DNA from: Escherichia coli O127:H6 str. E2348/69 | GTDB taxonomy: Bacteria; Pseudomonadota; Gammaproteobacteria; Enterobacterales; Enterobacteriaceae | Length of the DNA: 64,000 nt | Assembly: GCF_000026545.1 (NCBI RefSeq) | Contig: NC_011601.1 | Strand: one strand, 5' to 3' | Shown: positions 1 through 385 of the stretch, one piece after another | How the letters are laid out: every line of letters begins with the position of its first letter | How positions within the stretch are numbered: the first letter of the stretch is position 1 | Program-made: the position numbers and the translations under genes | Notes under the pieces: model-generated | Seen by the model: only the letters and a program-made list of their open reading frames with translations | Databases searched by the model: none | What the model was told of the DNA's origin: nothing

Positions 1-296
1 CCACTTTACATGCCAGTCTACAACAACGCTGGAGCGTAGCTGATATGGCTGCCACGATCCCCTGTAGCGAGGCCTGGTTGCGTCGTCTGTTTTTACGCTA
101 TACCGGCAAGACGCCGAAAGAATATTACCTCGATGCGCGTCTGGATCTGGCGCTATCGCTATTAAAGCAACAAGGGAACTCGGTTGGCGAAGTCGCTGAT
201 ACGCTCAACTTCTTCGACTCCTTTCATTTCAGCAAAGCCTTTAAGCATAAATTTGGTTATGCGCCGTCAGCTGTGCTGAAGAATACGGACAGGTAA
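1..296 (+). CDS. AraC-family transcriptional regulator, C-terminal helix-turn-helix part (partial, continues upstream of window; possibly yidL)
   Basis: Frame open from position 3 to the stop at 294-296; translation ...EAWLRRLFLRYTGKTPKEYYLDARLDLALSLL...FSKAFKHKFGYAPS has the AraC/XylS HTH signature. Confidence 0.6.
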   Translation, partial: TLHASLQQRWSVADMAATIPCSEAWLRRLFLRYTGKTPKEYYLDARLDLALSLLKQQGNSVGEVADTLNFFDSFHFSKAFKHKFGYAPSAVLKNTDR

Positions 297-385
297 TAAC
301 CAGAATGGCGAGTGTGTAAATGACTCGATGATGTTCAGAAATACCAGGCGGAGTACCATTTACGGCGACTCCACCCGGAAAAGAG

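What the first reader, a model, noticed from the sequence alone, without database searches (positions are those of the whole stretch)
1..385. AraC-family regulator directly abuts yidE; the K-12 glv/yidP block appears absent
A plus-strand AraC-type gene ends at 296, only 90 bp from the 3' end of yidE. In my recollection of K-12, the cryptic glv PTS operon and yidP lie between yidL and yidE. The junction here is therefore consistent with a strain lacking that variable island, and with the sequence not being K-12 itself.
Basis: partly seen in the sequence, partly recalled or inferred. Interest (0 to 1): 0.25.

Follow-up and report, generated by a model that had tools for sequence, protein, structure and literature searches.

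The report
Old deletion of the glv sugar operon
In this E. coli strain (E2348/69, phylogroup B2 type) the yidL regulator gene sits next to yidE because an old 3.9-kb deletion removed the glv alpha-glucoside operon, leaving a 94-base stump of yidP; this is an ordinary lineage-specific gene loss seen in about a fifth of E. coli genomes.

Summary
The window is E. coli E2348/69 at 100% identity. The AraC-family gene yidL ends at 296, and the yidE stop codon is at 386-388 on the minus strand, so the spacer is 89 bp. K-12 and O157:H7 carry glvA(G)-glvBC-yidP between these two genes.

Of 5426 complete E. coli genomes, 1137 have the direct junction and 4282 have the block. Junction genomes almost all lack arpA, and about 93% carry yjaA, which is the phylogroup B2 pattern.

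The block is not an inserted island:
- It has normal GC content and no mobility genes.
- It lies at the same site in nine Enterobacteriaceae genera, including E. albertii.
- The "empty" spacer is a remnant of the yidP 3' end. Bases 329-389 are about 97% identical to K-12 yidP, apart from a 10-bp slippage deletion. Bases 296-328 are a decayed in-register continuation (P=1e-4).

The junction is therefore a deletion scar. The retained yidP tail holds a conserved hairpin (344-378, minus strand), probably the yidE terminator.

The same scar occurs in three other Escherichia species representatives. A fourth has an independent deletion.

This is ordinary, already-annotated gene-content variation, and interest is low.

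The parts
1..296 (+). 3' part of yidL (AraC/XylS-family regulator): codons 192-288 plus stop TAA at 294-296. The gene start lies upstream of the window.
   Evidence: Pfam HTH_AraC and HTH_18. RefSeq annotation of E2348/69. 98% DNA identity to K-12 yidL over window 1-290. In the full-length protein the HTH_18 domain ends at residue 284 of 288.
291..295 (.). Left deletion breakpoint. Homology to K-12/O157 yidL stops after base 290, so the last 10 codons of the 297-aa YidL (QHPTDASPHN) are replaced by R-stop.
   Evidence: Alignment to K-12 and the protein comparison. In the E. whittamii, E69 and E1V33 alleles homology extends 3 nt further, through CAG.
296..328 (+). Decayed part of the yidP 3' remnant. 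The yidP-frame translation is GNNQNGECVNDSMM, against SYSESGEFLNYSVM in K-12.
   Evidence: A free local search against the block scored no better than shuffled sequence. In the register forced by the adjoining homology, 21 of 38 nt match K-12 yidP (P=1e-4 in 20000 shuffles) and 24 of 38 match Buttiauxella yidP. This stretch occurs only in junction-type genomes.
329..389 (+). Well-preserved part of the yidP 3' remnant, up to the yidP stop TAA at 387-389. A 10-bp deletion between the imperfect repeats AATGCCAG and AATACCAG, placed within 340-347, breaks the frame.
   Evidence: blastn gives 18/19 identities (window 329-347 against K-12 8980-8998), and the yidE-side HSP starts at window 340 (= K-12 9001), 49/50 identical up to the yidP stop. 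The sequence comparison is. tblastn matches YidP residues 220-238 to window 330-386, E=2e-4. The UTRA domain of YidP spans residues 87-224, so the remnant includes domain-coding sequence.
344..378 (-). Hairpin of 14 pairs just downstream of the yidE stop, followed by UAUUUCU. It is the probable intrinsic terminator of yidE.
   Evidence: The 111-nt minus-strand fold has -32.9 kcal/mol, z=-2.96, and 0 of 200 shuffles fold as well. Across 20 sequences 87.8% of cells are paired, against 27-46% in slid registers. One pair switches CG to GC. Substitutions in remnant-bearing lineages keep the pairing. The simple terminator scan did not flag it.
386..2047 (-). yidE, a putative AAE-family transporter of 553 aa.
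   Evidence: NCBIfam PRK03818 985.9 bits; Pfam Asp-Al_Ex x2 and TrkA_C x2. RefSeq annotation.

Best explanation
The yidL-yidE junction is the scar of one old deletion of about 3.9 kb. The deletion removed the alpha-glucoside catabolic unit: glvA (GH4 6-phospho-alpha-glucosidase), glvBC (PTS EIICB) and the first ~205 codons of its GntR/UTRA regulator yidP. It ran from codon 288 of yidL to about codon 206 of yidP. What is left between the two stop codons is the yidP tail. The promoter-distal part of that tail survives nearly intact, probably because on the opposite strand it forms the yidE terminator hairpin. The rest has decayed. A later 10-bp slippage event shortened the tail further. YidL lost only its 10 non-conserved C-terminal residues and probably still works as the regulator of the divergent yidK-yidJ genes. 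The strain therefore lacks this PTS route for alpha-glucosides. In E. coli the scar behaves as a marker of the arpA-negative, yjaA-positive (B2) lineage. Shown: the breakpoints, the yidP remnant, the population counts and the conserved position of the block in other genera. Inferred: the terminator role, the retained YidL function and the phenotype.
For: Identity and annotation. Breakpoints and yidP tail: with an independent tblastn hit of YidP residues 220-238. The 38 nt next to the tail are an in-register yidP continuation (P=1e-4). Population split: 1137 junction genomes against 4282 block genomes out of 5426. At most 12 genomes carry both the junction and arpA, and about 1054 of 1137 junction genomes carry yjaA. 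The block lies at the same site and in the same orientation in 24 loci from 9 named genera, including E. albertii. Block GC is 0.519 against 0.51 for the window, and no mobility genes are annotated in it. The identical scar, including the 10-bp deletion, is found in E. whittamii, E. coli E69 and Escherichia sp. E1V33. A different deletion with its own breakpoints is found in Escherichia sp. MOD1-EC7003. Hairpin conservation. The YidL HTH domain ends before the breakpoint, and tblastn coverage of YidL ends anywhere between residue 280 and 297 in other genera.
Against: Other genera that lack the block (Citrobacter youngae, C. werkmanii, C. sedlakii, Salmonella arizonae, Trabulsiella, Phytobacter) have short spacers with no yidP remnant. 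For them, loss cannot be told apart from never having had the block. The decayed part of the remnant is 36-45% different from every yidP allele. That is more than expected if the deletion were only as old as the Escherichia species split (4-fold site divergence 0.25-0.33). No repeat or clear microhomology explains the breakpoints. The hairpin has only a modest U-tract and failed the consensus terminator scan. In block-bearing genomes its pairing could partly be a by-product of conserved YidP codons.
Confidence: 0.9

Rival explanations
1. The glv/yidP block is a horizontally acquired variable island inserted in the K-12 lineage, and the window shows the original empty site.
For: The block is present or absent as a unit in E. 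coli. Several other genera have a bare yidL-yidE junction.
Against: The 'empty' site contains the last ~32 codons of yidP, including UTRA-domain codons. The block has normal GC content and no mobility genes. It occupies the same site in 9 genera.
Confidence: 0.03
2. The junction is a recent, strain-specific deletion or an assembly artefact of E2348/69.
For: None beyond the single window.
Against: About 1136 independent complete genomes share the junction, nearly all at 99% identity or more. Three other Escherichia species representatives share it at 92-95% identity.
Confidence: 0.01
3. The scar did not descend vertically into B2. Instead the deletion allele moved between Escherichia species by homologous recombination. 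The flanks were later re-homogenised within each species, right up to the limits of homology.
For: Between B2 and E. whittamii there are 0 differences in window 293-348, but 6 of 21 and 8 of 36 in the immediate flanks. Four-fold sites of the neighbouring genes differ by 25-31%. The 212 arpA-negative genomes without the scar suggest that close relatives of B2 keep the block. In B2 the E. coli-like sequence reaches exactly to the left breakpoint.
Against: Only about 56 nt are informative. Purifying selection on the core, for example as part of the yidE 3' end, would give the same pattern. E69 differs at 8 of 38 positions in the decayed part. No E. whittamii-type or E69-type junction exists among 5426 E. 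coli genomes.
Confidence: 0.35

Closest known systems
E. coli K-12 locus yidL-glvG-glvBC-yidP-yidE (cryptic glv operon)
   Same: Same flanking genes in the same orientation. yidL is 98% and the yidE 3' end 97% identical at the DNA level.
   Different: K-12 keeps 3.4 kb of glv/yidP, with glvG itself damaged (a 508-bp internal deletion relative to O157, annotated as frameshifted) and glvBC annotated with an internal stop. The window keeps only 94 nt of yidP. K-12 YidL has 297 aa; here it has 288. PMC5309279 describes the K-12 homologues of aglA/aglB as cryptic or truncated.
E. coli O157:H7 intact glvA-glvBC-yidP block
   Same: Same site. It represents the undamaged ancestral arrangement.
   Different: It encodes a full GH4 6-phospho-alpha-glucosidase (440 aa), a PTS EIICB (538 aa) and a GntR/UTRA regulator (238 aa). 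All three are missing from the window.
Klebsiella aglA/aglB alpha-glucoside PTS and phospho-alpha-glucosidase
   Same: Klebsiella oxytoca and K. spallanzanii carry the orthologous genes at the same yidL/yidE site (GlvA 89-90% and GlvBC 80-82% amino-acid identity). According to PMC5309279 the Klebsiella pneumoniae genes let E. coli use isomaltose.
   Different: That is a functional catabolic system. The window has lost it.
Independent deletion in Escherichia sp. MOD1-EC7003
   Same: It also fuses yidL to yidE and also keeps the hairpin-bearing yidP tail.
   Different: The breakpoints differ. The full 297-codon yidL tail and 8 nt of the glvA end are retained, and the 10-bp deletion is absent.

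Membership tests
AraC/XylS transcriptional regulators (YidL) | C-terminal double helix-turn-helix DNA-binding domain | tested here: met
   Pfam HTH_AraC 70.3 bits and HTH_18 67.2 bits on window 3-293. The same domains are found in the full-length protein from L001.
AraC/XylS transcriptional regulators (YidL) | N-terminal AraC-type ligand-binding domain | tested here: met
   PF02311 AraC_binding, 29.6 bits against a cut-off of 21.1, on full-length E2348/69 YidL. This part lies upstream of the window.
AAE (aspartate:alanine exchanger) family transporter YidE | Duplicated Asp-Al_Ex membrane domain with central TrkA_C domains, and an equivalog score above the cut-off | tested here: met
   NCBIfam PRK03818 985.9 bits (cut-off 449); Pfam Asp-Al_Ex x2 and TrkA_C x2.
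glv / agl alpha-glucoside PTS operon | GH4 6-phospho-alpha-glucosidase gene | tested here: not met
   No tblastn hit of O157 GlvA anywhere in the 64-kb window.
glv / agl alpha-glucoside PTS operon | PTS EIICB permease gene next to it | tested here: not met
   GlvBC gives only weak hits: 33% identity over 104 aa at 42039-42329, which falls in the annotated bglF gene (by my coordinate conversion), and a 28-aa chance match inside yidE.
glv / agl alpha-glucoside PTS operon | GntR/UTRA regulator yidP | tested here: not met
   Only the last ~32 codons remain, and they are frame-shifted.
Horizontally acquired genomic island (for the K-12 block) | Atypical base composition | tested here: not met
   Block GC is 0.519, against 0.51 for the window and 0.528 for yidE.
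Horizontally acquired genomic island (for the K-12 block) | Integrase, transposase, tRNA or flanking repeats at the borders | tested here: not met
   None is annotated in K-12 or O157. The genes abut yidL and yidE with 4-bp overlaps.
Horizontally acquired genomic island (for the K-12 block) | A clean empty site in genomes that lack it | tested here: not met
   The site holds a yidP remnant.
Rho-independent terminator (hairpin 344-378, minus strand) | GC-rich stem-loop directly followed by a U-tract | tested here: inconclusive
   The stem is strong and conserved. The tail UAUUUCUG has 5 U in 8. The bulged stem is not recognised by the consensus scan.
Rho-independent terminator (hairpin 344-378, minus strand) | Transcripts end there | not testable with these tools
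   This needs Term-seq or 3' RACE.

The most novel reading that the evidence does not exclude
The deletion scar is a trans-species allele. Its 56-nt core is identical in E. coli B2 and E. whittamii, while the flanks differ at neutral-like rates. This would mean either that the allele has spread laterally among Escherichia species by recombination, or that a stump of a dead regulator gene has been kept under selection as the 3' end and terminator region of the convergent gene yidE.
Probability: 0.35. Interest if true: 0.3.

Novelty: already known. Interest (0 to 1): 0.1.

Why it matters
It matters little beyond bookkeeping. The work identifies the window as a B2-type E. coli (E2348/69). It shows that this lineage cannot use the glv PTS route for alpha-glucosides such as isomaltose-type sugars. 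It also gives a clean, single-origin structural marker (the junction at 285-345) that separates arpA-negative, yjaA-positive genomes from the rest. The small lesson is methodological: an apparently 'empty' site still carried the stump of the lost regulator, and that stump settles the direction of the event (loss, not gain).

Tried and rejected
1. I first treated window 291-328 as foreign filler DNA. A free local alignment against the O157 block scored 11, equal to the shuffled mean of 10.98. Alignment against all 59 loci also stayed within the null. Only the register forced by the adjoining homology revealed yidP ancestry. My first in-register test was off by one base and gave a false negative, which one search corrected.
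2. I looked for an IS element or repeat behind the deletion. The junction sequence occurs once per genome, and no mobility gene is annotated nearby.
3. An Rfam search of window 1-3400 found nothing in the junction. It found only the known ROSE element upstream of ibpA.
4. Three literature searches (glvC/yidP; glvG/glvB/glv operon; yidL/yidE/glvA) found no paper describing this polymorphism.
5. I looked for E69-type or E. whittamii-type junctions in E. coli. There are none; the best matches are 94.0% and 92.7% identical.
6. A sliding comparison found no broad peak of similarity between B2 and the other species around the junction that would indicate a long introgressed tract.
7. Strain HH45 (L004) looked like a third deletion type. 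Its junction is a G-rich run that may be an assembly error, so I did not use it.

Full report
**What is there.** Window 1-296 is the 3' end of a plus-strand ORF ending in TAA at 294-296. yidE (553 aa) occupies 386-2047 on the minus strand, and the spacer 297-385 is 89 bp. The partial protein carries the AraC-type double HTH (Pfam HTH_AraC 70.3 bits, HTH_18 67.2 bits). YidE scores 985.9 bits on NCBIfam PRK03818, against a cut-off of 449. Window 1-900 is 100% identical to E. coli E2348/69 (NZ_CP059840.2), where the genes are annotated yidL and yidE. The rest of the window is the dnaA/oriC-proximal region of that chromosome.

**Comparison with K-12.** In K-12 the order is yidL > < glvG (frameshifted) < glvBC (internal stop) yidP > < yidE. 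In O157:H7 the same block is intact: a 440-aa GH4 6-phospho-alpha-glucosidase, a 538-aa PTS EIICB and a 238-aa GntR/UTRA regulator.

**Population frequency.**
- Of 5426 complete E. coli genomes, 1137 carry yidL and yidE in one contiguous match. About 1136 contain the junction-specific sequence.
- 4282 genomes carry the glv/yidP block. The two classes together account for essentially all genomes.
- A query made of the junction-specific 61 nt plus an arpA fragment hit 5214 genomes in 5226 places, so at most 12 genomes hold both. A further 212 genomes hold neither.
- The same query design with yjaA gave 2682 genomes and 3736 places, so about 1054 of the ~1137 junction genomes carry yjaA.
- By the logic of Clermont phylotyping (my own knowledge), arpA-negative and yjaA-positive means phylogroup B2. 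The junction carriers sampled include E2348/69, ATCC 25922, LF82 and F11, which I know as B2 strains.
- All E. coli junction alleles examined differ by at most one SNP in the scar.

**Direction of the event.**
- Homology to K-12 yidL ends at window 290. Homology on the yidE side begins at 340, with a further 18/19 match of 329-347 to K-12 offset by 10 bp.
- Read against K-12, window 329-389 is the end of yidP (...[23 protein letters not shown]). It is missing 10 bp between the imperfect repeats AATGCCAG and AATACCAG. tblastn finds this remnant independently: YidP residues 220-238, E=2e-4.
- The remaining 38 nt (291-328) looked like filler. Free local alignment to the block was no better than shuffled sequence.
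- In the register dictated by the adjoining homology, however, 21 of 38 nt match K-12 yidP (P=1e-4) and 24 of 38 match the Buttiauxella allele (P<5e-5). All matches fall in the right-hand 33 nt. The yidP-frame translation GNNQNGECVNDSMMFR aligns with SYSESGEFLNYSVMFR.
- The whole spacer is therefore the stump of yidP codons ~206-238, which overlaps the UTRA domain (residues 87-224). An insertion model cannot explain a regulator's C-terminus sitting in the 'empty' site.

**Outgroups.** A scan of species-representative genomes with YidL returned 55 loci.
- The block lies between yidL and yidE, in the same orientation, in 24 loci. These come from Citrobacter, Pseudocitrobacter, Superficieibacter, Kluyvera, Enterobacter, Klebsiella, Dryocola, Buttiauxella and E. 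albertii.
- Its GC content (0.519) equals that of its surroundings, and it has no mobility genes. It is an old resident operon, not an island.
- yidL stays next to yidK-yidJ in every locus, including those with neither glv nor yidE nearby. It is therefore not the glv regulator. yidP is the candidate for that role.

**Age and spread of the scar.**
- The identical scar, with the same 38-nt stretch and the same 10-bp deletion, is present in E. whittamii, E. coli strain E69 (a separate species representative) and Escherichia sp. E1V33. Escherichia sp. MOD1-EC7003 has a different deletion with its own breakpoints.
- The scar is 92-95% identical between B2 and these genomes, similar to the flanking genes. 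It is therefore old.
- Two oddities remain (note 2). First, the decayed part differs by 36-45% from every yidP allele, more than the 25-33% four-fold divergence among these species. Second, positions 293-348 show 0 differences between B2 and E. whittamii, while the immediate flanks differ at 6 of 21 and 8 of 36 positions.
- Either the core is constrained, or the allele has moved between species with later flank homogenisation. I could not decide between these with about 56 informative bases.
- No E69-type or E. whittamii-type junction exists in the E. coli collection.

**Why the tail survives.**
- On the yidE strand, 8 nt after the stop codon, a 14-pair hairpin (378 to 344) is followed by UAUUUCU. 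The 111-nt minus-strand fold has -32.9 kcal/mol and z=-2.96.
- In 20 aligned sequences from block-bearing and remnant-bearing genomes, 87.8% of cells pair, against 27-46% in slid registers. One pair switches CG to GC between Escherichia and the other genera.
- The substitutions seen in remnant-bearing lineages, where there is no longer any coding constraint, are C-G to U-G, G-U to A-U or G-C, or fall in the loop.
- I infer that this is the yidE terminator, and that deletions removing it are selected against. Both independent Escherichia deletions stop short of it. The consensus terminator scan did not flag it, so this remains an inference.

**Consequences.**
- YidL loses ten residues beyond the HTH domain, which ends at residue 284 of 288. 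This region varies in length among genera, so the protein is probably functional.
- The strain lacks the alpha-glucoside PTS and phosphoglucosidase route. The Klebsiella homologues of this route support growth on isomaltose, and the K-12 genes are cryptic or truncated (PMC5309279).

**Verdict.** It is ordinary, already-annotated gene-content variation, so interest is low.

Noticed in passing
window 7623-10329 (IS transposase gene at about 8005-9378): dgoD (galactonate dehydratase) is split by an IS4-like ISEc13 element in E2348/69, so the D-galactonate operon is probably inactive. This rests on the RefSeq annotation.
   Followed up: partly
window 35320-35329: cbrC (yieJ), which lies between cbrB and yieK in K-12, is missing here. 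About 624 bp of K-12 sequence have no counterpart, and tblastn with CbrC finds nothing in the window.
   Followed up: yes
L001 5009-5058 (upstream of the window, between yidH and yidJ): yidI, present in K-12, is absent from E2348/69. It is a third small K-12-versus-B2 gene difference within 40 kb.
   Followed up: yes
window 27560-28806 and 35386-36108: RefSeq marks tnaB as frameshifted and yieK as carrying an internal stop in E2348/69. tblastn still aligns both at 99% over nearly their full length.
   Followed up: partly
L002 5822-5836 (K-12) against L003 2745-3266 (O157:H7): K-12 glvG lacks 508 bp that are present in the intact O157 glvA. The two BLAST segments overlap by 15 nt, which suggests deletion between short direct repeats.
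   Followed up: partly
L017, L019, L028 (two tandem glv blocks) and L030 (extra yidP paralogue): Superficieibacter and Kluyvera georgiana carry two tandem copies of glvA-glvBC-yidP after yidL. The first copy has a divergent YidP paralogue (54-60% identical) that ends earlier.
   Followed up: no
window 386-2047 (yidE) against K-12: Four-fold site divergence between B2 and K-12 is 0.17 in yidE, against 0.03-0.08 in yidK, yidL, ibpA and ibpB. The first ~270 nt next to the scar are nearly identical, so yidE is a recombination mosaic.
   Followed up: partly
window 293-348: The scar core shows 0 differences between B2 and E. whittamii and 1 against E1V33, although the flanks differ by 22-29%. Possible causes are constraint or lateral spread. 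This is unresolved (note 2).
   Followed up: partly
L004 5395-5990 (E. coli HH45): A further apparent deletion leaves about 300 bp of yidP, but the junction is a long G-rich run that looks like a sequencing or assembly artefact.
   Followed up: no
L008 8882-11557 (Citrobacter amalonaticus): About 2.7 kb of extra sequence lies between yidL and glvA in this genome. I did not examine it.
   Followed up: no
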